A DNA stretch of 64,000 nt from Eledone cirrhosa (taxonomy: Eukaryota), in NCBI GenBank assembly GCA_964016885.1, contig OZ024766.1:13702001-13766000 (forward strand). Direction: 5' to 3'. Position numbers and translations under genes: made by a program. The notes beneath the pieces were generated by a model that did not search any database, was not told where the DNA came from, and saw only the letters and a list, made by a program, of their open reading frames with translations. Shown piece after piece: positions 2,726 to 63,910 of the stretch (the stretch's first letter is position 1; every line of letters starts with the position of its first letter).

Positions 2726-2739
2726 ATATATATTTGCGC

Positions 2740-3520
2740 GTACCATCCTGACTAGGACGTAGTCCAAAAGATGCCATTCCTTAGATGCAGGATGCATCCA
2801 TGTGGTCTTGAATTTGTTCTTTTGTTGGAACATGGTGTTGGTAACACACAGATCCAGCTCCTCACACATCTGCAGCAGGAGCATACCATTGTTGTTACAC
2901 TTTCCCACCCCATGCCTTCCGATTACATTCCATGTGTTAAAATCCCTACCCACTCTAGCATTAAAGTCACCAAGCACGATGACTTTGTCTGCCTGAGGGA
3001 TATTTCTTAAAACACCTTTCAAGGCATGGTAAAAGGACACTTTTTCTTCATCGACAGAATTCATAGTTGGAGCATACACACTCACCAGGGTCGCATATCT
3101 TCCTTTGTCCAGCGGAACTCTCATGTACATAAGACGCTCACTAATCCCTACTGGGAATTCTACTAATTTATTCACAAGTACAGTCTTAACAGCAAATCCT
3201 ACCCCAGCCTCTCTTCTGGTTCCTTCATCTCTTCCTTTCCAAAAGAATGTATATTCTCCACAAAATTCTGTAAGATGACCATCTCCAGCTAACCTCGTCT
3301 CAGATAAAGCCACGATGTCAAGATCGTAACGTCGAAGCTCCTTTGCAACAAGAGCGGTCCTTCGTTCAGGACGCTCCAAGGAATCCCTGTCAAGCAGCGT
3401 CCGTACGTTCCAGCAGCCAAGACTAAATGCCTTGTTTGGCTCTATTACAATGGCACGATGACGAGCGGGCCCCGGCTGTGATAACCTGGGGCCCCTGCCC
3501 TTATTGCCAATTATCTTTTT
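2740..3520 (-). mobile_element. AP-endonuclease (5') fragment of a different RTE-1/BovB-type LINE
   Basis: Translation GCWNVRTL...ERRTALVAKELRRYDLDIVALSETR...GVGFAV...SVYAPT...VLGDFNARVG...TTWMHP...WHLLDYVL; no RT follows. Confidence 0.9.
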
Positions 3521-3611
3521 TGTTCCAGAACCTAAATTGCCAATTATCTCTTTTATATTGTTCTGGAACATCATTGAATTGGAAGAAGAAAAAAAAAAAA
3601 AAAAAATAATA

Positions 3612-4680
3612 ATAGTAACAATAATAATAATGATTTCATTTATTAGCCACAAGGGCCGACATGTAGGGGACAATACAAAGACAGGGACAGTGGGGGTTTA
3701 CAATAAGGTCGAGTAAAAGTGCACAATGGCAAGTCTAATTTAACAATGAAGATATAAAGATATAAAATAAACTATGCATAAATATAACAAAATAAATTCC
3801 CCGATAGGGGGTGGACGACCCTGAACCACCCTGTGCTTCTAGGGCACCCAGGGAGAGCACCCCTCTCCTCAACTTAGCTAGCCTATAGGCACATGGTCAG
3901 AGTAGGGCCATTCACACGGGCCATTCTCGCCACATTCACCCACCTTTTAGAAAATGTACTGGGGGGCAGCACTTCTCTCTCCACCCTCACCTTCCTTTCC
4001 AGGTGAAACTTGAAGAAGTTGATGAGGGATTGGCCGAAGAGAAAAGTGTCTGTCTTTAGTCCATTCAACCTGGTCCACCATATAATCTCTTTCTCAACTT
4101 CCACCAGACAGAGGAAATGTCCTGCTCTTTCTGACCTAAGGAAGGCGGTGGATCGATCTTCACTATGGACTCGGCCGATAGCCGGATTCGTTCCACACGT
4201 GACAGTAGCTGTTCGACATAACTCCACAAGTCAGTAATGCACGGACATTGGACAAGTGCGTGCAGAACGGTTTCGTCGTTCTGTGCGCATCTTGTGCAGG
4301 TTCATCTGACAGCACTTCCGTGCCTGTAGAGTTAATCCCGAACCGGCAGTGCCCCCCGGTAGCACTGCCAAGCGAGGGATTTCTGGAAATTGTCCATCGT
4401 CCCCGGCTCAAAAGTCCTCCGGTACAGACTGGTCAGTTCGACTTCGTCGAGGCCCAAAGCTTCTCCGAGTGCGTCATTGCACTTGCCCACCACTAATCCT
4501 CTATAGAACTCGAGAGTGGAAGTTCCACTGATCGCATTGCCCGCTTGGTAGAGGGCAGTGAGTGCCTGGCAACATTCCAGGTGCCAGTCACCCAGTCTCG
4601 GTCTCTTCTTGCTAGTACAGCGTTCCTTTGTCAGTGTTGAACAAACGAGCAACGATGGTTGCTGGACACTATGGCTTCAT
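3612..4680 (-). mobile_element. 3' fragment of an L1/Tx1-like LINE (zf-RVT-like region, C-terminus, 3' UTR)
   Basis: Disrupted frames read ...KSLAWQCYRGALPVRD... and ...IIWWTR...FFKFHLERKVRVERE...FSKRWVNVARM. The 3' end is CCCTTGTGGCTAATAAATGAAATC(ATT)n. Confidence 0.7.
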
Positions 4681-28670: not shown

Positions 28671-28843
28671 TGTTGTTATTTAGACAATACTTACAGCAGT
28701 AAGTATATGTATTAAGTCCCATCATTAAAGAGACAACATAAGGAGGCCCCATGGTGGCATCTTGACATTAATGGCTGAATAAAAACCAGAGATTATTGAG
28801 TAAAAGAAAGAAATGTTGATATTCCATATCATTGTTAACTTAC

Positions 28844-29196
28844 TGTTCCATTGTTCCTCCTGCAGCTCTGTCACCTGGAACAGGGCTGGCATGAGACCCC
28901 AACATCTCTATTATAGCTGGGTATCCTCCACGTTTGGCCAGTTGTAAAGCTGTCTCACCTTCGTCATTTACAATACTTAAGTCTGTTTCTGGCCTTGACA
29001 GCAACACCGCCACAACCTCTGTATCTCCCCTAATTACAGCCCTATGTAAAGGCGTATTATCATTACAATCCCTCACATTCGGGTCAGCTCCCCCGGCTAT
29101 CAATAGCTCTACCATGGCAACACTCCCCCTACACACCCACCTCCCCCCTGCAGCCACATGTAAAGGTGTGAACCCACTTCTATCTCCTTGATTGAT
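28844..29196 (-). CDS. Ankyrin-repeat + death-domain protein, coding exon 3 (three ankyrin repeats)
   Basis: Acceptor ttttcAG, donor GTAAGT. Reads INQGDRSGFTPLHVAA...ADPNVRDCNDNTPLHRAV...DLSIVNDEGETALQLAKRGG. Confidence 0.92.
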
Positions 29197-29980
29197 CTGA
29201 AAATGTAAAAATATATTAAATATGGTGGGAGTGAGAGTGAAGGGGAGAGTATGTAGTAAGAGAGGGGGCGAGTGGAGGTGTGGGGAGAGAATTAACAATA
29301 GACGAGAGAGAGAGAGAGGGGAAGAGAGAGTGAGAGCGGTAAATAGAGAGTGAGTAAGACAGAGTAAAAGAGTGAGAGAGAGGGAGAAATAGAGAGCGAG
29401 GGGAGAAAAGAGGGAGAGAGAGAGAGGAAGAAAAGTGAGAGAGAAAGAGAGAGTGAGAAATTCGTATCTGTACCCCCCCCCCCGTCCTTCTTAGATTTTT
29501 GTATTAAATAAATAGATTAATTCACACACACACACACACACACACACACGTAGACAGATACACATACACACAGAAATACATAGAAAGATACACATATATA
29601 CTCACACACAGACACATACATACATACATACACAGACACATTCGTAGACCGATACACACGTATATACACACAGACAGTAACACACATACACACACAGACA
29701 GTCACACACGGACACACAGACAGACACACACATACACACACACAGACAGTCACACACACACACAGACAGTCACACAGACACACACACACGGACACACAGA
29801 CACAAACAAATCCATACAGAGTGGTAGTAGCAGTAAGAGTAGACAACAGTGATAGTAGGAGGAAGGTGTGACGTCATAAGATAGACGCTACAGAAAGAAA
29901 TGGTGGAAATATGTAAATGTCTCTAATTTGAGTTAAGTTTGACTTATTTCTCTCATTTAATGACAGAAATATGACAATAA

Positions 29981-32891
29981 TCTATATATATAATTCCCGT
30001 TCTGTGTGTGTGTAAAAGAGTTTCACTTGGAAAATATTCCATCCATCTCTGTCAAATTAAACACATAGCCAAAATAGGCTACGGTCTGTAACATAAAGAA
30101 AAAATTATTTCATAATGATTAATTTCGAAGTCACAAACTTCGATTTTATAATCTTATAGGCTTTTGCACTAACAAATTCCATGACGGCCATTAAAGAGAG
30201 AGAGCGTTCCTTTTACACACTTCTTAACTGTCCCCCTTCCACAACACGACGTTATGGGATGGTATGTGTATGTGCGTGTGTATATGTGTGTGTATGTGTT
30301 TGTGTGTGTATGTGTGCGTGCATGTGTGTGTGTGTGTAATTTCCATAACGGCCAGAGAGAGAAGGATGTGTGAGAAGGAGATAGAAAGAGAGGAGTGAAA
30401 GAGAGAGAGAGAGTAAAATAAAGAAAGAGAGGAGTGTGTGTGACTTAACACTCCCCCTTCCATAACGTCACGTCTTGGGATTATGTGTGTGTGTGTATGT
30501 GTGTGTACGTGTGTGTATGTGTTTGTGTGTGTGTGTTTGTGTGTATGTGTGTGTATGTGTTTGTGTGTATGTGTGTATGTGTGTGTGTGTACGTGCGTAT
30601 GTGTGTGCGTGTGTGCATGTGTGTGTATAAATGTGTTAATTGTAAGAAATAACAGACGATACTTTTTATTCAAAAAATTAAACTCTAAAGCAGTTTTGAT
30701 GTCATAAATCATATTTTCAAAGTGAAAATCGTCATTTCTTTAATACTTATTCAGAGGTTGAAATATATTTACTGTTTGTCTTTTGGTTTTTAATCAAATA
30801 TTTACACATTGCTCAACCGACACTGCTAAACACGATATTAGCAAAATTATTTTGTAAGTATGAAAATCTAATATATAATTCCCGTGTAGAAAAAGCAGAT
30901 GATAAAATATACTTTTTCGTCTTGCTTATTATTACAAAAATTTACACATTGTACACAACTATTTATTTCTTTTAATTGATTTGTATCAGCTTTATTCAAT
31001 TACATATTTTCGGTAGAATGCCTCGAAAAAGAAAGAGTAACATTGGAAAAAAAAACAAAAAATGCTTTTGCTTTGCGTTCTTTGCGCGCAAGCGAAACAG
31101 AAGAACAATGTGTGCTACGGCGTGCTCGCAATGCTGCTTCTACCTCGATCGCCAGAGCATTACAAACAACTGAACAAGCAGAACTCCAGCGTGCTCACAA
31201 TGCTGCTTCTACTTTGAACATCAGAGCATTACAGAAAGCTGAACAAGCAGAACTCCGGCGTGCTCGCAATGCTGCTTCTAATTCCAATAGCCGTGCTTTA
31301 GAGACTGTTGACCAAAGGGCAACAAGGCTTGCGGCTGATTCTCAACGGAAAATGCGTACTTATGTCTTTCCGAGGGATTCTTCCTGTTACTGGTCTAAGA
31401 AAGGTTTTCAATACAACCCCCAAGAGGACTACGCATCCCATCCACATATCATCATTGGTAGTATGTCAACTGTTTGCGTCCATTGTAATGCAATGAGGTG
31501 GCCAGCGGAATCTACCGGTATATGTTGCTCCAAGGGAACGGTTAGATTGCCTTATTTACAAGTCGGTGCCGAACCTTTGAATTCTTTGCTGCTTGGAGAC
31601 CACCCTGATTCTAAACACTTTTTCAGAAATATAAGAGCCTACAATTCGGCTTTCCAAATGACAAGCTTTAGTCATACACCAATAAAAGATGGGAATTATA
31701 TGCCCACATTTAAAGTGCAAGGCCAAATTTACCATCAAATAGAATCACTTATTCCACAAGATGGCAAAGAACACAGTTTTCTCCAGATCTACTTTATGGG
31801 CAACGGACCTGAAGAAATTGCACGAAGGGCTTCAGTTGCTAAAGGAACGACACCTTCTCTTCTGCAGCCCCTTCAATATATGCTTCATTCCATAAACCCG
31901 TACATCACCATTTTCAAAACTGCTTTACAACGTAGAGATGCTAACAACAATCAATACAAGGTTGTCATTCGAAATGACCGCGCTCCACCAGGGCAACATC
32001 AGGGTTGCTTTAATAGACCCCAAACCGATGAAGTTGCGGTGATTATAACACGTCCTAATCAGAGCGCTTCAAACCGTGATATTGTTATTGAATGGCAGGA
32101 CTCGCATCTTCAAAAAATAAATGAACTTCATCCCGCATATGATGCTCTCCAGTATCCATTGCTGTTCCCCTTTGGCGACGATGGCTACCACATTGATTTG
32201 CAAAAGTGTAATCCTGTAAGTTTAATGCATCTTACACCAGGGAAAACCATTTCACAAATGGAATTTTATGCATTTGTGAAAAACGACGTCAACATTCTGC
32301 ATAGAACACGGATGCTCCTCAATCAATACTGTGTAGACATATTTGCTAAGATTGACACTGAACGCCTCCAATGGATAAGACATCATCAAAAGGAACTGCG
32401 TTCAGAAGAATACGGCAATCTATGTGACAAAATAAACCGAAATGATCAGGCTAATGCTTCGGATGTTGGGCTTTCTGTCATTCTCCCATCATCATACACT
32501 GGAGGCCCCGTTACATGCATGAAAAAATGCAGGATGCTCTGACCTATGTCCGCCATTGTGGCCATCCTGATCTTTTTATCATCTTTACATGCAATCCAAA
32601 ATGGTTTGACATCCAGTCTCATTTACTGTTTGTCTTTCGGTTATTAATAAAAAAAATTACACATTGTTCAACCGACACGGCTAACGATACATTTCTCTAT
32701 GTTCACATTTTAATGACACATATCTGTAAATAAAACTTGCTCTTTTTGAATACCGTCTCATTTTGTTTTATTGAAAGAGTTGATCAGGTAAAATTATCCT
32801 CCAAGTTAAACATACAACACGGAAATTGACCATTAACATTGCAGCCCTACCAAGAACTGACACCGTCCAATGGACAGGGGTCATTTGCTAG
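29981..32891 (+). mobile_element. Internally deleted Helitron in intron 2 of the host gene
   Basis: 5' A|TCTATATATATAA; 3' hairpin CCGTCCAATGGACAGG followed by TTTGCTAG|T; RepHel remnant inside. Confidence 0.88.
31018..32620 (+). pseudogene. Helitron RepHel N-terminal half (frameshifted, truncated after Rep motif 1)
   Basis: MPRKRKSNIGK / CVHCNAMRWPAESTGICCSKG / HFFRNIRAYNSAFQMTSF / YDALQYPLLFPFGDDGY / ILPSSYTGGP / PDLFIIFTCNPKW. No HUH motif or PIF1 helicase follows. Confidence 0.9.
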
Positions 32892-37135: not shown

Positions 37136-37321
37136 TGTATATAACAGCAACAACAACAAAACAAGATAAAGATTACCAGGTAACTTACTTTTTCGTCTAT
37201 TTTACATTGTTTAGTCTTATATCACTTTCCACATTTTACGTATGTGTGTGTATTTATATATATATATATATATGCTGTGGTTATCCCGATCTCACTCGGG
37301 ATCTCTCACACACACACATGC

Positions 37322-38161
37322 TAACTTAAAGAATGCCACGGTACTAAAGTACGCAGATGACATCAAGCTGTACCTTGAGATAAAAAGGACAGATCCTGAA
37401 CACTATAGATCTTGCTTGCAGTCTGACCAGGACACAATGCAACAATGGATCTCAGACTGGCAACTCAAGCTAGCTGTGGACAAGTGCACCACCATACATT
37501 TTGGGAGTAAAAACCTAGCGTCCACATACTCCCTCCACAGCACTAATATCAAGAAGTCTTCTTGTGAACGTGACCTGGGCATTACGGTCAGCAGCGATTT
37601 GCGTTGGACGAAGCACGTCTGTAAAATTGTCAAGAGCGTCAAGGGTGTCTTAGCATCACTCAGCAAGACCTTTGTCAGCCGTTCTCCAGATATCTATTTA
37701 AGGCTGTACATGGCTATGGTGCGGCCACACTTAGAATTTGCATCACCAGTCTGGAACCCCTATCTTGCTCAGAACATTGACCGCCTGGAAACTGTTCAGA
37801 GATGTGCAACCAAGCGAATACCCTCCATCAGGCATCTACCTTACACTGAGCGCCTTGCTTCCCTGGGCATGGATACATTGAAGCTCCGACGCCTGGCAAC
37901 TGACTTGATACACACCCACAAAATTGTTAACCATCTTGCCAACAACAACCCTGAGTACCTTTTTGATTTCCATGTGTCTAACACACGTGGACATGCCCAC
38001 AAAGTCAGAAAACTGCACAGTTCCCAAGACTTTCGGAAACATTTTTTCACGCTCAGAGTTGCTGAAGCATGGAACAAACTACCTGCATCAGTTGTTAGCT
38101 GTCGAGACACTGCAACCTTTAAGGCCTCCATGCTTCCCGAGATCCGCAAACACTACAGCTA
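37322..38161 (+). mobile_element. CR1-clade LINE 3' fragment with open RT C-terminal frame
   Basis: LKYADDIKL...WQLKLAVDKC...ERDLGI...LYMAMVRPHLEFASPVWNP...LETVQRCATK...TRGH...FFTLRVAEAWNKLP. Confidence 0.9.
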
Positions 38162-38256
38162 ATGTTCCCCCTCCATACACATACACACATGTATATATAT
38201 GTATGTTTGTTTCATCTCTGACACACACACACATATATATATATATGTATGTTTGT

Positions 38257-38450
38257 CTCAGGTTCAATCAGAGGTAACCACAGTAAGTACGGTGCTCAAT
38301 ACATAGCAGAGTATGAATATTTAATATAGAAATGGCTTCTACAGGACTAGAACTGTTTCAGTCAGGAGAAATCATCAGGAAGCTTCCTGGTGATTTCTCC
38401 CGAATCAAACAAGTCTAGTCCTGTAGAAGCCATGTCTATATTAAATATAA
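38257..38450. mobile_element. Short hairpin element (Penelope/retrozyme-like) with hammerhead, family H1
   Basis: Homologous to 60103-60295; palindrome centred on AAGCTT at 38380-38385. Confidence 0.75.
38335..38383 (-). ncRNA. Type I hammerhead ribozyme motif
   Basis: GCUUC CUGAUGA UUUCUCCUGACU GAA ACAG UUCUAGUC CUGU A^GAAGC: intact core and helices I and III; helix II weak. Confidence 0.65.
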
Positions 38451-47425: not shown

Positions 47426-47635
47426 TATATATATATATGAATATATATATATATTTATATATATATAAATATATACTATGAAATATGAGTTGAAAACTCA
47501 GGCAGTCCTTTATCAAATATATTAATTTATATTAACTTGTATAAATATATATATATATTTTATATATATAAATATATTTATATATATATGTATATATATA
47601 TATATTTATATATATAAATATATATATATATAAAT

Positions 47636-48882
47636 AGAGTCAAAAGGACTTAAAATTAACCTGGCTAAGACCAAAGTTCTAGTTTGTAGGAAAGAAAACA
47701 AGGCGGCGGTCCCTTCTGGGAAATGGTCGTGCTCGGTATGTAGGAAAGGCGTAGGTAGAAACTCCATCTTATGTCCTAAATGCAAAGTATGGGTGCATAA
47801 AAGATGTAGTGGGATCACAGGTAAGCTAACTAAGAACATAGACTTTACATGTGGCCGGTGTTCTGGTGCAATAAGTAGCAGCAAGTGCCCACAAAATACT
47901 AGCTCTTTCAATTGCGCAGAGGGTTTTATAGAAATAGTGGACAGCTTCCGTTACCTGGGCGATAAAATCAGCAGTGGGGGAGGGTGCTCTGAAAGTACTG
48001 TAGCTAGAGTCAGAACTGGTTGGAAAAAGTTCAGAGAGCTTATACCACTATTAGCTGCTAAAGGGTTCTCCCTAAAAATGAAAGGCAGGTTGTACGATGC
48101 CTGCATACGAACAGCAATGTTGCATGGTAGTGAGACCTGGGCATTGTGTGCAGAGGATATACGCAGACTAGAGAGGAACGAAGCTTGCATGCTCCGCTGG
48201 ATGTGTAACAGTAATATACGTGAACGGCAAAGCATAAACGAACTAAGGAAAATATTAGAGATAAGAGGGATCAGATGTTGTTTACTCGAGAGAAGGCTGC
48301 GTTGGTATGGACACGTGATGCGCATGAAAGTCGATAGCTGTATTACAAAGTGCAGGGCAATAAAGATAGACGGTAGCCACGGAATAGGCAGACCTAGAAA
48401 AACATGGGACGAGCTGATAAACTCCGACCTCACACACTTACACCTCTCCAAGACAATGTCACTGGACCGTGACCTTTGGCGGTACTCAGTAACAGAGAAG
48501 ACCCGCCTTGCCAGTAGGCATCTCTAACAAAATACACCCCTCCCGCCGCCACCCCCACCCCATCCACACCACCCCGTTCTATGTAAAGTTATGTTGGTGC
48601 CGCGCCATCCAGGCCGAAACAAATGAGATCGTGTAGGTGTCACGACAAAAAAACACACAGTCCACGCTGTAATGTGGCCGTGTAGGCAACACGGTAAAAA
48701 CCTCCCAGACCCACACTGTAAATGTGGTTGGTGTTAGGAAGGGCATCCAACTGTAGAAAACCTGCCAGACAGTCCTATGCGAGCAAGACAAATCACTCTT
48801 GCCTCAAGTGGGACTACCCCCGTCCAAACCCATGCAAGCGTGGAACACGGACGTTAAACGTTGATGATGATGATGATGATGA
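47636..48882 (+). mobile_element. 5'-truncated RTE family A copy (PHD-like finger + C-terminus + 3' UTR)
   Basis: Open frame to 48527, near-identical to 1498-2220 and retaining the segment deleted there; flanked by (TA)n. Confidence 0.93.
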
Positions 48883-53350: not shown

Positions 53351-53537
53351 GATTTACTCGTTTTATTTACAATCCTTTAAAATTTATAATGGTATTAGAA
53401 TGAAATAGTATGGTAGAATATTAAATGTTAAGTGTTAATTGAACAAGTACTTTCATGCTTTCGCAGTCTTCAGGTTCAAATTCTGTGGTGACAGTCAAGT
53501 TTGCAATTTTCAACTGTATATATATATATATATATAT

Positions 53538-54067: not shown

Positions 54068-55504
54068 CTCAAACATGACTAATATTAGCACTGTGTATGC
54101 AACTAGTGGAAATCTTATTGGTCATGCTTTTAATATTTTGGTTGGTTTCTTTTGGCTGGATGCCTTTCCTATTACCAAACTCTTTACAGTGTGGTCAGGG
54201 TGCATTATTCATGCAATAATCACTAGAGACATCCTCTTCACCCTGTATGAGTGTTTATTTGGATTGTCTACTCTCCTAGATGGGTTGCCATCACTACGGC
54301 TTACAGGGACCACATCTGCCCAGACAGTCATTAAACGGGTCACAGATCAGTGAATTTACATTCATGGTGTAGGAGGATACGTGAGTGTGTGTGAGTAAGC
54401 AAATGGCATAAATGTAAGGTTATATCTGCCAAACAGAAAGGTAGAGGACAGGAGTAGGTGGAAGGGATGTGGTGACAGCTTCTGAGACAGGTAGATAGCT
54501 ATTGTGATAAATAGCAGACAGGTTAGCAATAAATAGATGAAATGTTAAAAAAACTGAGAAATATCGATGGTCTTATCTTTAAGATTTAAATCCTCCATTA
54601 CCGCAGGAAGATTGGATATTTCTATGATTGGGAGAAGGAAAAAGAAACAGAGCACACTGCAGGCTGTGTACTGGTTTAATGGGGATGGAGAGACAACATA
54701 AAGCAGGGTTCGAAAGTTGGATGTCACTTTTTAAAAAAAGCATCATAATGACACAGGTCTATACATAATTGAAAACATATACACAGATATATACATATAT
54801 GTCATACACTATATATATATATACACATGTATGTATATAAAATGAATAAAAGAACCAGGGATTAATTACAATGTTTAATAGATCTGTGAATGTTTCTTTC
54901 AAATACAGAAGGACTTAGGGCCACACAACTAGCAACACCAGCCCCAGTAGCAGCTAAACCCCCACCAATAACAACCAAGACAGAACCAACCCAAGGGGAA
55001 CATGAGGATATCTCCCCCACTCCATCCAAAAACAAATACATATTTAAACCCCCACAGAAATACACAAATACAAACATTTTAGAGTTACACAGGGACCTCG
55101 TCTTCTTGCAGTGAAGACAAGGGACAACCCAAAAGAGCACAAAACACAAATGTGCAAACAAAAGAAAAAAAACTCAAAGATCACATACTAGGGGCTCCCC
55201 ATTTTCCAAACCTAACCCTGTCATTACCATTACCAATGGGCTTTACCTGTTTTTGTGGAGAGGTTTTGCTAACTCTTGTCACTGGCCTGAATTGTTGAAG
55301 TAGCCAACAGTTCACCTCCTGTGTCACACACACTTGGCTTACAAACTTGCCCTGTGGCCTCCCAGATGATATCATATAGGTTGGGGTACTAGGCTGCAAT
55401 GAGCTGCTGGCATGAGTGGTATATCTACCAATACCAACTCACCACCTGCTGGTCAGGCTCTTAGGTAAGTATATTGGGATTTAAGGTGGCCATTTCTTAC
55501 ATTT

Positions 55505-56290
55505 TGTTTCCAAGTTGTGCCTCCATGTCTGAAATTTATTCTCTAATTCTGTCATAGATTTGGCTAAGAGGGTCAGGTCATTGGCGTATAGAAGTTCCCA
55601 AGGGCAACCAGTCTTAAATTCCTCTGTTATAGCCTGTAGGACAATAATGAAGAGGATGGGGTAAAGGACGGAACCTTGGTGAACCCCTACCTGTCAGCTG
55701 CATTCCTCCCTGTATTCATTGTTGATATTAACTTTGCTGGTGGCCACTTTGTAAATGGCCTGTACTGCTCTCACAAGCCACTCATCCATGCCTTGTTTTT
55801 TGAGGGCCCACCATATTATGGGTTGAGGAACTCTGTCAGAAGCTTTCTCCAGGTCAACGAAAGCTAGGTTGAGTGACTTGCTTTTTGCCAACTACTTCTC
55901 CTGCATTTGCTTCGCAAGGAAGAGGGCATCGGTGCTGCTTCTTCCCGGCATAAATCCAAACAGCATTTCATCTAGTTATATACGATCTCTAATCAGTTGT
56001 GTGATGACCCTTTCTGTAACTTTCATGACCTGGTCAGTCAGCTTTATGCCCCTTAGTTACTTCTCTCTAGGGCATGTCTTTTACCCTTGTAACAGTTGAT
56101 GATGATGATGCTATTTCAATCACTGGGAATTATACCATTCTCTATTATTTGTTTTCAATGAGGGTGGTTAGGTTGGGCCTTACTGCCCAAGATGCTTTCA
56201 ACATCTCAGCTACGACTCCCGATGCTTTATGCGTCTTCAGCTTCTTAATTGTCTTACTTACAAGGTTGCTGTTTATGTGTATAGTTGGTC
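55505..56290 (-). mobile_element. Degenerate RTE RT fragment
   Basis: VVAEMLKAS, LAFVDLEKASDRVPQPIIWWALKK, GCPWELLYANDL on the minus strand. Confidence 0.85.
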
Positions 56291-56387
56291 CTTCTGTTGG
56301 CTGTGCTTGGGGCATCATCATCATCGTTTAACGTCCATTTTCATGGCTAGCATGAGTAAATAAAATATCTATATATATTTATATATA

Positions 56388-56497
56388 ATTGTTTCTACTT
56401 TTGGCACAAGGCCAGCAATTAACCCAGTGTATTACTGGTACTTTATTTTATCGACCCTGTAAGGCAAAGTTAACCTCGGAGGGATTTGAACTCAGAC
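56388..56497 (-). mobile_element. SINE family 1 fragment
   Basis: Reverse complement of GAGTTCAAATCCCTCCGAGGTTAACTTTGCC...GTAGAAACAATT. Confidence 0.78.
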
Positions 56498-57064
56498 TGC
56501 ATATATTTATATATAATGAACTTGTGTAGATGTATGTCTGTGAGAGTGTAGATGTGTATGTGTGTGCACTTGTATTTATATGTGTGTGAGTGTTTTTCTG
56601 TCCATGTTTGTCTGCGTTTTTATTGATATGACTCAGTGAAAGGAAATTTCTATACATTTCAATGAATACAAGCTAAACATTTTGTCTAGTATATACAAAT
56701 ATGTAGGCATGTGTATGTATATACATATATATATTTATTATATATATATATATACATACATATGTGTATGTATATATATATATAGACGTATCAACACAGA
56801 CAAAAGATAGAAATGTATGTAGGTGTGTATAATACAGGAGAAAAAAACAAGTTTCTTTGTAATATACGTATGACCTCATATCTTTTCAAATTACTGTAAC
56901 TTATGCAAAATTACAAACTTAATATGGATTTCAACGAAATTTGTGCAATGAAAGAATTAATAAAATTCAGTTTATCAGAGCGTGATGAAATTATATTTGG
57001 AAAATGTAAACAAGATCAGGAAAATGTCTCAAATATAATATATATGCGTGTATATATATATATA

Positions 57065-58104
57065 TCATCATCATCACCGTTTTACGTCCGTTCTTCCACG
57101 CTAGCATGGGTTAGACGGGTTGTCCTGTTGTGGGCAGTGTCTGGTCGGCTGACCATGCCTTGCTCATACAGGAACTGGTCTGGCTTGATTTCTACAGCTG
57201 GATGCCCTTCCTAACACCAATCTCATTTACAGTGAGTGCTGGGTGCTTTTTCGTGGCGCCTACACGTCCACTTTACAGTGTGGGCTGGGTGCTTTTTTGC
57301 CGTGGCACGTCCACGACCACCTTGCGGTGCGGGTGTGGGGGCATATTGTCTATATGCTTCAGCTTGTACCCATGGGAGGTCGGGTACTCTGTATTACTGC
57401 GTGACGCCAGAAGTCACGGTCGTGTGTCATTTCCTTTGAGAGGTGTAATTGGGTAAGGTCGGCTTTTATCACCTCATCCCAGGTCATCTTGGGTCTCCCC
57501 ACTCCGAGGTTTCCATCAACTTCTAGTGCTCTGCACCTTTTTATGCAGCTGTCATCCTTCATACGCATCACATATCCATACCAGCGCAACCGCCTCTCTT
57601 GCACACAGCATTTGATTCCTCTTTTGCTCAGTCTCTCTCTCAGTTCATTTATGCTTTGTCGTTCACGTATATTACTGTTACACATCCATCGGAGCATGCA
57701 GGCTTCGTTTCTCTCTAATCTACGTAAGTCTTCCACCTTCAGCGCCCAGGTCTCACTACCATGCAACATTGCTGTTCGGATACACGCATCATACAGTCTG
57801 CCTTTCATTCTGAGGGAGAAGCCTTTTGCAGCTAACAATGGCAGTAGCTCCCTGAACTTCTTCCATCCCGTTCTTACCCTAGTTATTGCACTTTCTGAAC
57901 ACCCACCTCCGCTGCTAATTTGGTCACCTAGGTAGCAGAAGCTGTCTACTGTTTCTACAGGGCCCTCCCAGAGATTGGTGGTACTTGTTTCCTGTGGCTG
58001 TTTGCTGCTTGCTGTCCCAGCACAGCTGCTGCATGTGAAGCCTACATTCTTAATTAAGCTTCCTGAGATCCCGCTACATCTCTTGTGTACCCATTGTTTG
58101 CATT

Positions 58105-58107
<3 letters not shown>
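57065..58107 (-). mobile_element. 5'-truncated RTE copy (third subfamily) with 3' UTR and (GAT)n
   Basis: [11 protein letters not shown]...FTCSSC...FCYLGDQIS...RRLRWYG; tail at 57065-57076. Confidence 0.9.
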
Positions 58108-58164
<57 letters not shown>

Positions 58165-58218
58165 ATCCTTTAACGTCCATCCTCCATGCTAGCATGGGTG
58201 TATATACGTATATATATG

Positions 58219-58249
<31 letters not shown>

Positions 58250-58344
58250 GGATATATATATGTATATACGTGTATATATATAAATACGTGTATATATATA
58301 TATATATATATACGTGTGTGTGTATATATATATATATATATAGT

Positions 58345-58570
58345 GAAGGCGTGTGGCTGAGTGGTTAGAGAATTGGGAGAATTGGATTCGCAATCGTAAG
58401 GTTGTGAGTTCGATTCCTGGACCAGGCGATGCGTTATGTCCTTGAGCAAGACACTTTATTTCATGTTGCTTCTACCTGGAATTGTGACCGATAGATAGTA
58501 TAAGCAATTGGAAAGACCAACGGAAACATTGTTTCCTCGGTCCGATTTGACGAAAGTCGATCGTTAAAAG
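58345..58570 (+). mobile_element. tRNA-derived SINE, family 2 head with a different 3' part
   Basis: TGGCTGAGTGGTTAG A-box, GAGTTCGATTCC B-box, GTCCTTGAGCAAGACACTTTATTTC. Confidence 0.75.
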
Positions 58571-58603
<33 letters not shown>

Positions 58604-58605
58604 TA

Positions 58606-58664
<59 letters not shown>

Positions 58665-58752
58665 ATATATATATGCATCTATATAAAAATGTATATATAT
58701 ATATATGTATGTATATATATGCATGTCTATATATATATATGTATCATCATAA

Positions 58753-59633
58753 TCTATAAAGCTCAGTGTGTGGTCATGCTCCTTCGTTATAGAAATCTAC
58801 GATATAGAATATCTTCAATTGAAATTTACAACTCAACACTCGAAAAAGCTTCGATTGCGTCTCGACGCAGATAATTTTTTCAATTTCATCCACAATTACG
58901 CAAAAAATAGATAAAACTGAATATTTTACGATTTTTCTCTCTCATTTAAACTGCTGAACTCTTTCTACTACCATTCAAAATCTATACAATTTCATACTTT
59001 CTGCTACTTTCTCTTTCCAAGCTTGATGGTGATACTGTCCGTTCACACCACTCCCAACTGTCTTAAATTTAGAAAACACATATCCTCTATGAGGTTACTA
59101 AACCTGCTAGAAACAGCAGCTAACTCTCCCACATATCACCCCCCCCCCCTACTGTCATAAATTTAGAAAACATATCTTCTATGATGTCACTAAACCTGCT
59201 AGAAACAGCAGCTAACTCTCCCCCATATCACACCACTCCCTACTGTCTTAAATTTAGAGAACACATATCCTCTATGAGGTCACTAAACCTGATAGAAACA
59301 ACAGCTAACTCTCCCTCATATCACAACCCTCCCTTCTGTCTTAAATTTAGAAAACACACAGACAACCATGCAGAACAACTCCATCGCAGCTCTGTTGTTC
59401 GGCTGGCATCGTCTACGCGCGTGTTGCGCAAGTACTGTGAAACAATAAATTTCAACACAGAGATAATATCCATAGGCGAAACTACAATTGTCACTGCTGG
59501 CCCAGCTCATGCTTCCAGGTCTGCAATCCATTCACCCAGTGCCTGGCAGACAAAAAAGTGCTGCCATAAATGGGTGGTGCAACCTAACTTTGGTAACTTA
59601 ATGACCCCAAGCAACGCCGGGCTTTAATGCTAG
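58753..59633 (+). mobile_element. Non-autonomous Helitron containing a ~93-bp tandem repeat
   Basis: A|TCTATAAA 5' end; CCCAAGCAACGCCGGG hairpin followed by TGCTAG|T; repeats at 59040-59360. Confidence 0.72.
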
Positions 59634-59851
59634 TAATTGATAAGACGTTGTGACAACTCTGCTATGTCTACGCTGTATATATATATGTTTATAGCAGTAC
59701 ACGTCCATATTTCTGTTACACATTAATAATAATTACGTACATCTATATGACAAGTAGGGAGTGCTGAGAGATTATGTGTGTGTTTGTGTGAGTGTTTGTA
59801 TGTGTTAATATATGTGTGACGGTGTGTATATATGTGTATGTGAGTTTGTGC

Positions 59852-59896
<45 letters not shown>

Positions 59897-60067
59897 GAAT
59901 AATGATTCCCAGAATTCAACACTGTTATTAATATACTTGATGACTAATTAGACTGGTTAGACAGGATGTGAATGTATGTGTGTGTGTGTGTAGAATAATG
60001 TGTGTGTGTGTGTGATAATGTATGTGTGAAAATGTGTGTGAATGTATATATATATATATTAAGGTGT

Positions 60068-60103
<36 letters not shown>

Positions 60104-60185
60104 GTTATTCCGGGTTGAATCGGAGGTAACCACAGTAAGTAAAGTACTCAATACATAGCAGAGTATAAAAGTTTTAATATAGATG

Positions 60186-60235
60186 AGATTCTACAGGACT
60201 AGAACTGTTTCATTCATTAGAAATCATCAGGAATC
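60186..60235 (-). ncRNA. Type I hammerhead ribozyme motif (mirror copy)
   Basis: Exact reverse complement of the plus-strand motif at 60237-60286. Confidence 0.7.
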
Positions 60236-60286
60236 AGATTCCTGATGATTTCTAATGAATGAAACAGTTCTAGTCCTGTAGAATCT
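60236..60286 (+). ncRNA. Type I hammerhead ribozyme motif
   Basis: AGAUUC CUGAUGA UUUC-UAAU-GAAU GAA ACAG-UUCUAGUC-CUGU A^GAAUCU; predicted cleavage after 60280. Confidence 0.72.
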
Positions 60287-60290
60287 CATC

Positions 60291-60332
<42 letters not shown>

Positions 60333-60426
60333 GAATAATGATTCCCAGAATGCAACACAGTTATTGAAATATTTGATGAAGGGCGTGGTTAGACAGGATG
60401 TGAATGTATGTGTGTGTGTAGGATAA

Positions 60427-60458
<32 letters not shown>

Positions 60459-60514
60459 GGATAACGTATGTGTGAAAATGTGAGTGAATGTATATATATA
60501 TATATTAAGTTGTG

Positions 60515-60558
<44 letters not shown>

Positions 60559-60572
60559 CATTTATACATACC

Positions 60573-60636
<64 letters not shown>

Positions 60637-61052
60637 CTTACATACATATCTAGAAGTCAACAGAACACACCCCAGCAAAATTCTCGGAAAAGATTCCACT
60701 TTCACAGAATAAGTTTATATTTAAATATATATACATATGAATGTGTGTGTGCGTGTGTGTGTAGGATAATGTATGTGTGTGTGTGTGGGATAATGTATGT
60801 GTGAAAATGTGTGTGAATGTATATATATATATTAAGGTGTGTTTATATATATATATATATACACACACACACAGAATGATTCCCAGAATACGACACTGTT
60901 ATTGAAATATTTGAGGAAGGGAGTGGTTAGACAGGATGTGAATGTATGTGTGTGTGTAGGATAATGTATGTGTGTGTGTGTGTGGGATAATGTATGTGTG
61001 AAATTGTGTGTGAATGTATATATATATTAAGGTGTGTTTTTATATATATATA

Positions 61053-61503
61053 TGGTGGCTGCCAACTCGTTTTCGAGTACGGCCACTACTTTATATCCAT
61101 GTAGGAGAACCCCTACCGATGCGCTGAACGAGTGTGACTTTTTAGTCCAGCCAGCGACTTGAAAACTCTGGTACAAACACTACACTTGTGACAATTACTG
61201 ACACATAGTGCTGGGCCCATGGTACCATGTGACGACAAGTGCAGAGAGATCTCCAGATATAAAGCAATGCCTGTGCCGTGAAGCTTTTATAGTGAGCAAA
61301 GGCACTGCACAAAGCCAGTCCCACTCTCTTAACCAAGATGATATTTACCAAAAAGAAGAACAAGTCAACATCATTGGATACCATCAGGGTTGCAGGTGTT
61401 ATATCAGAGTTTTCCTTCTCCTAGAATTCTGCCTTGACAAAGGCTAAGGGGTCATCTCTCCCGGTGATTTTGGATGGCCATTGACTCTTAAGAGCTCCTT
61501 TGC
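61053..61503 (-). mobile_element. Short RTE-1-derived element (5'-UTR-like motif joined to C-terminal C2H2 finger and 3' end)
   Basis: CTAGGAGAAGGAAAACTCTGA motif near the 5' end; CSVCTRVFKSLAGLKSHTRSAHR* near the 3' end; (TA)n on both sides. Confidence 0.55.
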
Positions 61504-61504
61504 C

Positions 61505-61542
<38 letters not shown>

Positions 61543-61561
61543 TTTATACATACCCAGGTGG

Positions 61562-61658
<97 letters not shown>

Positions 61659-61954
61659 GTCAGGTCACTATATATATATATACTTACATACATATCTAGA
61701 ACAGTCAACAGAACACACCCCAGCAAAATTCTCGGAAAAGATTCCACTTTCCCAGAATAAGTTTATATTTAAATATATATACATATGAATGTGTGTGTGT
61801 GTGTGTAGGATAATGTATGTGTGTGTGTGTGGGATAATGTATGTGTGAAAATGTGTGTGAATGTATATATGTATATATTAAGTTGTGTTTTTATATATAT
61901 ATATATATACACACACATACATTTATACATACCCAGGTGGCTCTATATATATAT

Positions 61955-62152
61955 ATCATCATCATCATCATCATCAGGTTTAGCGTCCGTGTTCCACGCT
62001 TGCATGGGTTTGGACGGGGGTTTTCCCACTTGAGGCAAGAGTGGTTGTCTTGCTCGCATAGGACTGTCTGGCGGGTTTTCTACAGTTGGATGCCCTTCCT
62101 AACACCAACCACATTTACAGTGTGGGGCTGGGAGGTTTTTACCGTGTTGCCT
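61955..62152 (-). mobile_element. RTE family A 3' tail
   Basis: Reverse complement of ~2535-2725. Confidence 0.88.
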
Positions 62153-62989
62153 GAACTCTGCATCATTCCTCTGGGAACAACCCCTTGTTCCACCCCCCAC
62201 CCCACCTCCCCGACACTTTTTTTTTTTTTTTTGTACATCCATCCATTCACTCATTCTTTTACTGCCATTCTACCTTCCTCCATGCAGCCCCTTTTCGCTC
62301 TCGTTTTCTGGCACCTCCACAACTTTACAGAGAAACGGTGGTATGGGTGGAAGGATGGTGTAGGGGTAGTGGATTTGGGTGTATATTTGGTTAAGAGGGG
62401 GCCTACTGATAGTAGGCTAACTTTGTACATAGGCAAGGCGTGTCTTCTGTATTACTATGTGGCCCCAAAGATCTCCGTCCAGTGACATTGTCTTAGAGAG
62501 GTGTAAGTGTGTAAGGTCGGAATTTATCAAATCATCCCAGGTTTTTCTGTCTGACTACTCTGTAACTTCCATCAATTTTGATCACCTCTCTTAGTCTGTC
62601 TTTTTAGATAGATACATTATGAGAACATTGACTTCGCTACCTGTGTGTGTATATATATATGTATAAATATATATAGTGTGTATGTATATATATATATATA
62701 TATATATATAGTGTGTATGTATATATATATATAGTGTGTATGTGTGTATATATATATTTATATATATATAGTGTTAGTATCATAAATAAGAGAGTTTAAT
62801 TTCTACATTTTATTACAGCATTCCTTTATACAGACATATATACGTATATATACATACATAAACATGTTATTTACAGTTGTATAAAAAAGAATTATAATTG
62901 TTTCTACTTTTGGCACAAGGCCAGCAATTATGCCAGTATATTACTGGTACTTTATTATATATATTATGACATTCCTCTCTTTAGATAGA

Positions 62990-63326
62990 TACATAGCTAT
63001 AGCGCCGCACCCCGGGTATGACAGAACTCATGGCTTAGCAATTACATAGACAACGGTTCGGAAATCACATGCATCACTGACCAGTTTACTCCTTAATCTA
63101 CCAGTTAGTCTTAGTGTACTTTGTCCTGCATTTAGGTGATGACCTTGAAGGAAGAGATTCTCCATTGACCGAAATACTACGAAAGCGGCAAGAAAAAGAA
63201 CATGGCGGGCAAACGAATCGTCAGTGGAATCTGCAAGGCCGAGGTATTCTGTACTGTTTCAGAAAGGAGGGATAAAGCTGCCAATCTATGTTTAGAATCC
63301 CGAGTAACGCCGGTCCATTCTGCTAG
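62990..63326 (+). mobile_element. Helitron-like 3' end
   Basis: CCCGAGTAACGCCGG hairpin followed by TTCTGCTAG|T; 5' boundary uncertain. Confidence 0.45.
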
Positions 63327-63353
63327 TATATATATATAAATATATATTTATAT

Positions 63354-63391
63354 ATCATCATCATTTAACGTCCATCTTCCACACTAGCATG

Positions 63392-63449
<58 letters not shown>

Positions 63450-63767
63450 TCATTTAACATCCATCTTCCACACTAGCATGGAATATATATATGTATATAT
63501 ATATATATCATCATTTAACGTCCATCTGCCACGCTAGCATGGAATATATATATATATATATATAAATATATATTTATATATCATCATCATTTAACGTCCA
63601 TCTGCCACGCTAGCATGGAATATATATATATATATATATAAATATATATTTATATATCATCATCATTCAACATCCATCTTCCCCGCTAGCATGGAATATA
63701 TAAATATATATATAAATATATATTTATATATCATCATCATTTAACGTCCATCTTCCACGCTAGCATG

Positions 63768-63803
<36 letters not shown>

Positions 63804-63834
63804 TCATTTAACATCCATCTTCCACGCTAGCATG

Positions 63835-63876
<42 letters not shown>

Positions 63877-63910
63877 TCATTTAACGTCCATCTTCCATGC
63901 TAGCATGGAA
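63354..63910 (-). repeat. Tandem array of 8 copies of the terminal ~36 nt of the RTE 3' tail separated by (TA)n
   Basis: ATCATCATTTAACGTCCATCTTCCACGCTAGCATGGAA(TA)n repeated. Confidence 0.92.

What the first reader, a model, noticed from the sequence alone, without database searches (positions are those of the whole stretch)
60103..60295. Perfect palindrome encoding back-to-back hammerhead ribozymes on both strands
Seen: 59-bp perfect arms around one base. Each strand reads helix I (GAUUC/GAAUC), CUGAUGA, a short stem-loop II, GAAA, a 4-bp helix III (ACAG/CUGU) and a GUA cleavage triplet. The element is only ~190 bp, non-coding, flanked by (TA)n, and mutation-free, so it is recent. Established: type I hammerheads mark Penelope-like elements and non-autonomous retrozymes. 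Inference: a non-autonomous ribozyme retroelement whose transcript from either direction contains an antisense copy followed by a ribozyme. The long hairpin would compete with the catalytic fold, giving a built-in switch or a dsRNA/editing substrate. Position 10.1-11.1 is U-U, which is atypical and may weaken activity.
Basis: partly seen in the sequence, partly recalled or inferred. Interest (0 to 1): 0.85.

Follow-up and report, generated by a model that had tools for sequence, protein, structure and literature searches.

The report
Double-primed Penelope stubs with hammerhead arms
This palindrome is one of thousands of short mirror-image insertions of the hammerhead-bearing front end of a Penelope-type jumping gene, and their junctions suggest that each half was likely copied separately from a likely capped RNA into opposite strands of the cut chromosome.

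Summary
In detail: perfect 59-bp arms around 60236, each a type I hammerhead motif. It is not a lone switch. The 134-nt minus-strand arm matches, at 132 of 134 bases, the start of an intact 713-aa Penelope-like element of the Hydra clade in the same genome. A 21-nt tail motif occurs 9,226 times; the start-codon region occurs 117 times.

In 90 copies, the mirror half is rebuilt at each insertion (41 different junctions among 46 short palindromes). The arms start at one base 30 nt below a TATA box. They end at two fixed sites that flank a small hairpin motif conserved across the clade (32 of 38 relatives). An extra G precedes that base in 76 of 100 non-native starts (control position 3 of 100) and sits on both arms at 192 loci.

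Best reading: both nicked strands of a (TA)n target prime reverse transcription of capped, uncleaved RNA, and the two cDNAs are joined head to head. The U-U pair is typical of the clade. Head-to-head Penelope insertions are known; the cap trace, start site and hairpin were not found in my searches. Cleavage and expression are untested.

The parts
60103..60295 (-). Whole head-to-head stub insertion of a Hydra-clade Penelope-like element (inverted short arm + long arm with tail)
60103..60235 (-). Long, tail-bearing arm: positions +2 to +134 of the parent's 5' leader; ends at the downstream terminus (site B)
   Evidence: 132 of 134 nt identical to the leader of the intact partner L255; 3' ends cluster at +134 to +140
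60236..60295 (+). Short, tail-less arm: positions +1 to about +56-60; ends at the upstream terminus (site A), merging into (TA)n
   Evidence: 53 of 53 detected inverted arms stop at or before +68
60236..60236 (.). Junction base; equals +1 of the parent, the inferred transcription start (TATA at -30, CCAAT at -84 in promoter-bearing copies)
60237..60285 (+). Type I hammerhead motif, predicted cut after 60280
   Evidence: sequence; helix I covariation A-U 185, C-G 5, no crossed combination; activity untested
60187..60235 (-). Type I hammerhead motif, predicted cut after 60192
   Evidence: sequence; activity untested
60145..60165 (-). Tail hairpin (ACUC..GAGU here; GCUC..GAGCA in relatives) between the two termini; candidate protein-binding element
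   Evidence: 32 of 38 relatives, shuffle mean 0.84, maximum 4 of 1000 shuffles; binding inferred
60071..60102 (.). (TA)n target, left part, inside a ~436-bp satellite unit
60291..60312 (.). (TA)n target, right part
38251..38447 (-). Second, older head-to-head stub of the same family in the window, centre near 38383, helix I variant GCUUC/GAAGC in both arms

Best explanation
The palindrome is a short head-to-head insertion of the hammerhead-bearing 5' leader of a Hydra-clade Penelope-like retrotransposon, likely made when both nicked strands of a (TA)n target each primed reverse transcription of a likely capped, uncleaved RNA and the two cDNAs were likely joined at their ends. Steps: (1, shown) the parent has a promoter-like region, then the hammerhead motif, tail, ATG at +181, a 713-aa RT/GIY-YIG ORF and a second copy of the promoter and hammerhead at its 3' end. 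(2, inferred) RNA polymerase II starts at +1, the base before helix I, in full-length elements or in promoter-bearing solo ends. (3, inferred from PMC11167929 by analogy) the protein binds the tail hairpin, nicks both strands of (TA)n and starts cDNA at two internal sites, A (+56-60 or +67) and B (+134-140). (4, inferred) each cDNA runs to the RNA 5' end, often copying the cap as an extra base. (5, inferred) the two cDNA ends are joined through 0-6 nt of microhomology or a few added bases. Because the start sites lie in the leader, any RNA that begins at +1 would give a stub rather than a full copy, which would explain why stubs far outnumber coding copies. The stubs lack the promoter and are probably dead ends.
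For: Partner: tail reads into the ORF in L138, L152, L179, L228; L255 has an unbroken 713-aa frame and both ends with the Hydra motifs. Fixed outer ends: 53 of 53 detected inverted arms stop at or before +68 (30 at +67/68, 20 at +56-60, 3 other); tail arms mostly end at +134 to +140; three coding copies end at +67. Variable inner join: 41 distinct junctions in 46 short palindromes, 28 of 46 reaching -2 to +3. Start site: TATA at -30, CCAAT at -84; TATA at the same distance in 9 of 39 relatives against 1.5 in shuffles, 0 of 2000 shuffles as high. Cap trace: G before +1 in 76 of the first 100 of 2,536 non-native starts against 3 of the first 100 of 1,309 at +7; on tail-less and tail-bearing arms alike; on both arms at 192 loci. 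Separate priming: in 16 of 50 copies the tail-less arm reaches at least 8 nt further 5' than the tail arm, which a fold-back of the tail-arm cDNA cannot give. Same source RNA: arms share the helix II loop variant in 23 of 24 copies, chance 0.43. In vitro, an Anolis PLE cuts and extends both strands, starts at two internal sites and uses uncleaved RNA (PMC11167929).
Against: No RNA, cap or activity data for this family. Of 19 G cases inspected, 1 is a helix I microhomology join and 5 could come from the neighbouring inverted arm; 13 are clear, and 2 of 26 further G cases are helix I joins. The +7 control is dominated by T, which point mutation or microhomology can supply, so it is an imperfect baseline. 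Asymmetric arms could also arise by deletion after insertion, as palindromes are unstable. Shared variants in both arms fit a fold-back equally well. 40 of 90 copies had no adjacent inverted arm by the strict parser (the BLAST parse finds a few more), so dual priming is not obligatory. Samples are the first places along one contig, not random draws. The hammerhead fold is not the predicted best fold of the arm (-4.7 against -8.3). Pfam support for the ORF is weak (GIY-YIG E 0.012, no RT hit).
Confidence: 0.7

Rival explanations
1. Same parent element, but one cDNA is made from site B to the RNA 5' end and then folds back on itself (or self-primes on an antisense template, as proposed for rotifer Penelope elements), and second-strand synthesis stops at site A.
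For: Arms mirror sequence variants in 23 of 24 copies. Many junctions are near symmetric with 1-nt centres. PMC3846280 Discussion reads junction palindromes as self-priming.
Against: 16 of 50 inverted arms contain 5' sequence that the tail arm lacks. 192 loci carry the extra G on both arms, mostly with one base between, which a fold-back with a 3-nt minimum loop gives only after several specific untemplated bases. In L366 and L367 the two arms hold different numbers of tandem units. The G at +1 points to a sense, capped template.
Confidence: 0.2
2. One reading: the palindrome is a self-propagating non-autonomous ribozyme element, transcribed from either side, with the long hairpin acting as a switch.
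For: At least 40 copies are 98-100% identical over the whole 193 nt (40 scored of 2,212 candidates); about 207 loci share the exact junction. True tandem, retrozyme-like arrays of the same hammerhead exist in the genome.
Against: The exact junction is about 2% of tail-bearing places (207 of 9,226) and recurs with different loop variants, centre bases and outer ends. Stubs have no promoter. Arms begin at +1 with an extra G, not in read-through sequence. The hairpin is about 90 kcal/mol more stable than the ribozyme fold.
Confidence: 0.06
3. The palindrome is a fold-back assembly or sequencing artefact, or a MITE-like DNA transposon with a chance hammerhead motif.
For: Perfect palindromes in (TA)n are artefact-prone; no public contig spans the whole stretch; no target duplication can be read inside (TA)n.
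Against: Thousands of copies with fixed outer ends, an empty paralogous site, an older diverged copy with imperfect arms in the same window, an RT-coding parent and covarying helix I.
Confidence: 0.02

Closest known systems
Hydra clade of C-terminal EN+ Penelope-like elements (Craig et al. 2021, PMC8557442), including Hydra-1_Obim and Penelope-13_HM
   Same: RW[K/R], DKT, CxCX5C linker, CxxC and CxH in the endonuclease, no GxKF/Y; (TA)n target; type I hammerhead, often with U10.1-U11.1; inverted 5'-truncated copy at the 5' end (Penelope-13_HM has the hammerhead on both strands); tail at one end only.
   Different: A distinct family from Hydra-1_Obim (different N-terminus and hammerhead, compared by eye; four short query strings of this family gave 0 hits in the supplement). 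Long microsatellite-rich 3' region, 8-nt loop III with a CUAG palindrome, tail of about 70 nt instead of 30-40, and copies dominated by ~190-bp ORF-less stubs.
Poseidon element of Anolis (PAc) in vitro (Frangieh et al. 2024, PMC11167929)
   Same: Two internal reverse-transcription start sites that define the tail; AT-rich target; both strands cut and extended; uncleaved RNA as template.
   Different: Another clade; hammerhead overlaps the ORF start there, but lies in the leader here; the parts read do not describe head-to-head products, the RNA 5' end or cap traces.
Inverted pLTRs and junction palindromes of Adineta vaga Penelope elements (Arkhipova et al. 2013, PMC3846280)
   Same: Head-to-head inverted ends, palindromes at the junction, TATA and initiator-like motifs in the pLTR, optional tail.
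   Different: Low copy number and ORF-bearing there; explained by self-priming on an antisense template, whereas the junctions here point to two sense, capped templates.
Non-LTR retrozymes (Cervera and de la Pena 2020, PMC7229834; bioRxiv 10.64898/2026.07.22.740005)
   Same: Short, non-coding, type I hammerhead, derived from PLE ends.
   Different: Retrozymes are head-to-tail tandem repeats giving circular RNA. Among the first 100 hammerhead-core hits there are 20 head-to-head pairs and no same-strand pair within 500 bp. Tandem arrays of this family exist but are rare.
LINE-1 twin priming and untemplated 5' G (review PMC4859970; PMC9341517)
   Same: Two primings at one target giving an inversion; extra G read as a copied cap.
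   Different: In LINE-1 each RNA part is copied once (recalled); here the first ~60 nt are usually copied twice, giving a palindrome, and there is no poly(A) tail.

Membership tests
Penelope-like element, EN+ | Single ORF with RT and C-terminal GIY-YIG endonuclease in the parent | tested here: met
   713-aa frame in L255 with FDVSMG (311), YRDD (347), IVYK..YIG (585); Pfam GIY-YIG weak, E 0.012; 1,404 homologues among 8,000 scored candidates
Penelope-like element, EN+ | Pseudo-LTR with hammerhead at both ends of coding copies | tested here: met
   L255 and L257 carry the motif before the ORF and again at the 3' end; L258 at the 3' end with a truncated 5' copy; L256 only before the ORF in the stretch fetched
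Penelope-like element, EN+ | Inverted 5'-truncated copy and tail at one end only | tested here: met
   50 of 90 copies with adjacent inverted arm; 53 of 53 detected inverted arms lack the tail hairpin; a few symmetric two-tail copies exist (L035)
Penelope-like element, EN+ | Target-site duplication | tested here: inconclusive
   Cannot be read inside (TA)n; PMC8557442 notes the same limit
Hydra clade | RWK-type motif, no GxKF/Y, DKG changed to DKT | tested here: met
   RWR at 38, DKT at 116, no GxK[FY]; definition
Hydra clade | CxCX5C linker; CxxC and CxH in the endonuclease | tested here: met
   Linker at 566, CxxC at 666 and 691, CxH at 694
Hydra clade | (TA)n insertion and readily detected hammerhead | tested here: met
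Hydra clade | Placement inside the clade on an RT tree | not tested
   No tree built; reference proteins were seen only as supplement text
Type I hammerhead ribozyme | Conserved core, three helices, NUH triplet | tested here: met
   Sequence; helix I covariation in the family (copies are not independent events); no Rfam match
Type I hammerhead ribozyme | Self-cleavage | not testable with these tools
   Only 3 of 90 copies start at +44 to +47 near the predicted cut, also explained by helix I microhomology
Non-LTR retrozyme | Head-to-tail tandem units each with a hammerhead | tested here: not met
   Window copy is a single head-to-head unit; 0 same-strand pairs within 500 bp among 100 listed hits; rare arrays elsewhere
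Non-LTR retrozyme | Monomeric linear and circular RNA | not testable with these tools
   No RNA run listed

The most novel reading that the evidence does not exclude
Penelope-like elements integrate by two-ended first-strand synthesis: a protein dimer positioned by a clade-conserved GCUC/GAGC hairpin primes cDNA from both target strands at sites on either side of the hairpin, both copies run off the capped 5' end that lies right before the hammerhead, and their ends are joined. The thousands of stubs here would be a genome-scale record of that reaction and would replace antisense self-priming as the source of inverted pLTRs.
Probability: 0.5. Interest if true: 0.75.

Novelty: new member of a known kind. 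Interest (0 to 1): 0.52.

Why it matters
How Penelope-like elements make their head-to-head ends and tail is named as an open question in PMC8557442 and is left open by the only in vitro study (PMC11167929). This family gives a minimal natural substrate (about 140 nt), an intact coding partner, a predicted start base, two predicted priming sites and a conserved hairpin, so the question can be tested directly. It also adds an estimated several thousand near-perfect ~60-bp inverted repeats to this genome (20 pairs per 100 of 31,535 core hits, extrapolated from one contig end), which would form dsRNA if transcribed. The structure itself is a known kind, so the value lies in the mechanism, not in a new class of element.

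Tried and rejected
Rfam at gathering score: nothing; E-value mode gave only hairpin-driven miRNA-like and chance hits. A second PLE family found next to one copy (L038; 775-aa frames) shares no sequence with this element's ends and was rejected as partner. L189's apparent read-through has no ORF match shown and was not followed. Sequencing runs: no RNA holder listed; this says nothing on expression. Read laying used contigs only and none spans the stretch; its A>G at 60143 is the family's common variant, not editing. PDB sequence search with the alignment: no meaningful hit. A MAFFT alignment of hammerheads was not structure-aware and had one misplaced row; not used. Starts at the predicted cleavage site: 3 of 90, no clear excess. 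An excess of tail arms stopping at site A (5 of 19 truncated arms) is not above chance. The tail motif of Hydra-2_Amil was the only hit of three short strings in the paper's supplement (line breaks hide matches). Helix I pairing in relatives was required by the parser, so it is not used as covariation evidence. In one search, 4 of 42 chosen relatives were dropped as too short; of the 6 misses, 4 end in (TA)n before the motif, 1 has a longer loop and 1 is another motif; in about 4 hits the pattern matched a neighbouring site. Look-ups of earlier findings by sequence and place were empty.

Full report
Observation. The window has exact 59-bp arms, 60177-60235 and 60237-60295, around an A at 60236, folding at -95.9 kcal/mol with z -19.9. 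A further 74 nt (60103-60176) belong to one arm only. The unit sits in the (TA)n of a ~436-bp satellite; a neighbouring unit near 60832 has the empty site. Rfam does not recognise the motif. The host looks like an octopus from its repeats and 3-Gb size; this is recalled, not from a call.

Copy number. The 193-nt query gave 2,212 candidates; the 40 scored were 98-100% identical over nearly the full length. Exact pattern counts, all with controls of 0 or 1: tail motif 9,226, helix III core 31,535, the window's junction about 207 loci, start-codon region 117, native upstream start 6,933. Among the first 100 listed core hits, 20 pairs lie head to head within 100 bp and no same-strand pair lies within 500 bp. 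Short-read contigs of four public runs hold the family, two of them at great depth with many different joints; none spans the whole stretch.

Parent. In four loci the tail reads on into an ATG. L255 is complete: it begins a few bases before the palindrome's centre base, has the hammerhead, tail and ATG at +181, an unbroken 713-aa frame, a microsatellite-rich 3' region, and a second promoter-like region and hammerhead ending at +67. The window's long arm matches its leader at 132 of 134 nt. The protein has RWR, DKT, CxCX5C, CxxC and CxH motifs and no GxKF, which is the definition of the Hydra clade (PMC8557442 section 11). Pfam gives only a weak GIY-YIG hit; I built no tree. Hydra-1_Obim in that paper's supplement is a different family by eye.

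Census. I parsed 90 copies from the first 91 of the 9,226 tail places, all on one contig. Fifty had an adjacent inverted arm, 46 of them short, with 41 distinct junctions; 28 of the 46 reach -2 to +3. About 28 copies run into the upstream promoter-like region, and 3 read into the ORF. Outer ends are fixed: 53 of 53 detected inverted arms stop at or before +68, and tail arms mostly stop at +134 to +140. Arms share the helix II loop variant in 23 of 24 copies. In 16 of 50 the inverted arm reaches at least 8 nt further 5' than the tail arm, the reverse in 5. The window's exact junction recurs with three loop variants, both centre bases and both outer ends in 15 loci chosen by junction. The palindrome is therefore rebuilt at each insertion.

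Start site and cap trace. Promoter-bearing copies have TATA at -30 and CCAAT at -84 from the centre base. Where an arm starts at +1 without the native upstream C, the preceding base is G in 76 of the first 100 of 2,536 places, against 3 of the first 100 of 1,309 at +7. Of 19 inspected G cases 13 are clear, 5 could come from the other arm and 1 is a helix I join; 5 of the 11 non-G cases are native copies with a point change. Both arms carry the G at 192 loci. An untemplated G at full-length 5' ends is read as a copied cap for LINE-1 and SVA (passages of PMC4859970 and PMC9341517). That reading is an inference here.

Conserved tail hairpin. A scan of metagenome contigs with a 17-protein alignment kept 77 loci of 475 confirmed. 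A script found 49 distinct sense hammerhead motifs, 18 with U at both 10.1 and 11.1. In 32 of 38 usable relatives a GCUC..GAGCA-type motif lies 60-125 nt after the core (shuffle mean 0.84, maximum 4), and TATA lies at the same distance upstream in 9 of 39 (shuffle mean 1.5). This family has ACUC..GAGU, a double change that keeps pairing. The hairpin (+72 to +92) lies between the two termini, and four relatives end in (TA)n just before it. Its role as binding site is inferred.

Mechanism. PMC11167929 (parts 1-2 of 4) shows an Anolis PLE cutting and extending both strands, starting at two internal sites that define the tail, using uncleaved RNA, with a predicted dimer and a protein-assisted ribozyme. 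Applied here: both strands of (TA)n prime, one at site A and one at site B, both run to the capped +1, and the ends are joined. The main rival is a fold-back of one cDNA, close to the self-priming proposed in PMC3846280 (passages and Discussion). It fits the mirrored variants but not the longer inverted arms or the double-G junctions, unless later deletions and specific added bases are invoked.

Ribozyme. The hammerhead fold is weak (-4.7 against -8.3 for the arm's best fold) and loop III holds a CUAG palindrome, as in the dimer-type, low-activity metazoan PLE motifs of PMC4209133 (parts 1-2 of 4), which also mentions pairs on opposite strands 100-700 bp apart in Schistosoma. U-U is in 14 of 25 Hydra families (supplement part 2). 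A read-through RNA would be locked as a hairpin. In the parent, a cut at +45 would remove the cap; passages of PMC13725137 report that self-cleavage can promote cap-independent translation in viruses, which is only a lead.

Novelty. Inverted pLTRs, tails, (TA)n targeting and hammerheads in Hydra-clade PLEs are in print (PMC8557442: passages, section 11, supplement listing, part 2 and searches; PMC8969392: passages). Retrozymes are tandem (bioRxiv 10.64898/2026.07.22.740005, parts 1-2 of 5; PMC7229834, passages). Ten searches showed no listing that describes cap traces on both arms, the start at helix I or the GCUC/GAGC hairpin for PLEs. The library lacks most subscription papers, I saw most hits only as listings, 58 of 59 supplement parts were only searched, and Repbase and Dfam were not available. 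Earlier notes of this scan on a shark-like genome reached similar ideas about starts before the hammerhead and rebuilt arms; they are not independent support. Verdict: a new family of a known kind, with mechanistic traces worth testing.

Noticed in passing
L366, L367, L368, L369 (G000 C4:279.229 Mb, C9:23.836 Mb, C3:36.232 Mb, C3:263.668 Mb): Short head-to-tail arrays of 191-261-nt units made of this family's hammerhead, tail, leader and ATG, apparently from an internal deletion between the ORF start and the downstream end. They look like non-LTR retrozymes being born from the PLE; L366 and L367 are themselves head to head with site A and site B ends.
   Followed up: partly
window 53430-53480 (-): Another minimal hammerhead-like motif (6-bp helix I, CUGAAGA core) next to (TA)n, from a different repeat; similar flanking sequence lies near L036.
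   Followed up: no
L170, L187, L191, L225, L254, L367 flanks: Several unrelated perfect fold-back elements in (TA)n tracts, suggesting other PLE families in this genome leave the same kind of stub.
   Followed up: no
L121-L134 (for example G000 C1:399.39 Mb): A second young PLE family with 775-aa frames, an overlapping upstream frame (one copy, L130, has a 938-aa frame), (TA)n target and inverted ends, but no canonical hammerhead found; 19,331 first-look candidates.
   Followed up: partly
window about 54400-63900 and L371 (G000 C27:14.866-14.876 Mb): The region holding the element is duplicated about 1.1 Mb away at 99.3% identity over at least 9.4 kb; segmental duplication or retained haplotype.
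   Followed up: partly
window 30980-32542 (+): 520-aa open frame resembling a Helitron Rep/helicase N-terminal part (resemblance recalled, not searched).
   Followed up: no
window 28840-29490 (-): Open frame with ankyrin-repeat-like sequence, possibly a host exon (recalled resemblance).
   Followed up: no
window 2702-3697, 37215-38162, 47634-48527, 57359-58471: Fragments of LINE-type endonuclease and reverse transcriptase frames (recalled resemblance).
   Followed up: no
G000, pattern: Double-G junctions usually have one central A or T, and many have symmetric CC/GG, as expected if two cDNA ends with added bases anneal through a 1-bp overhang.
   Followed up: partly
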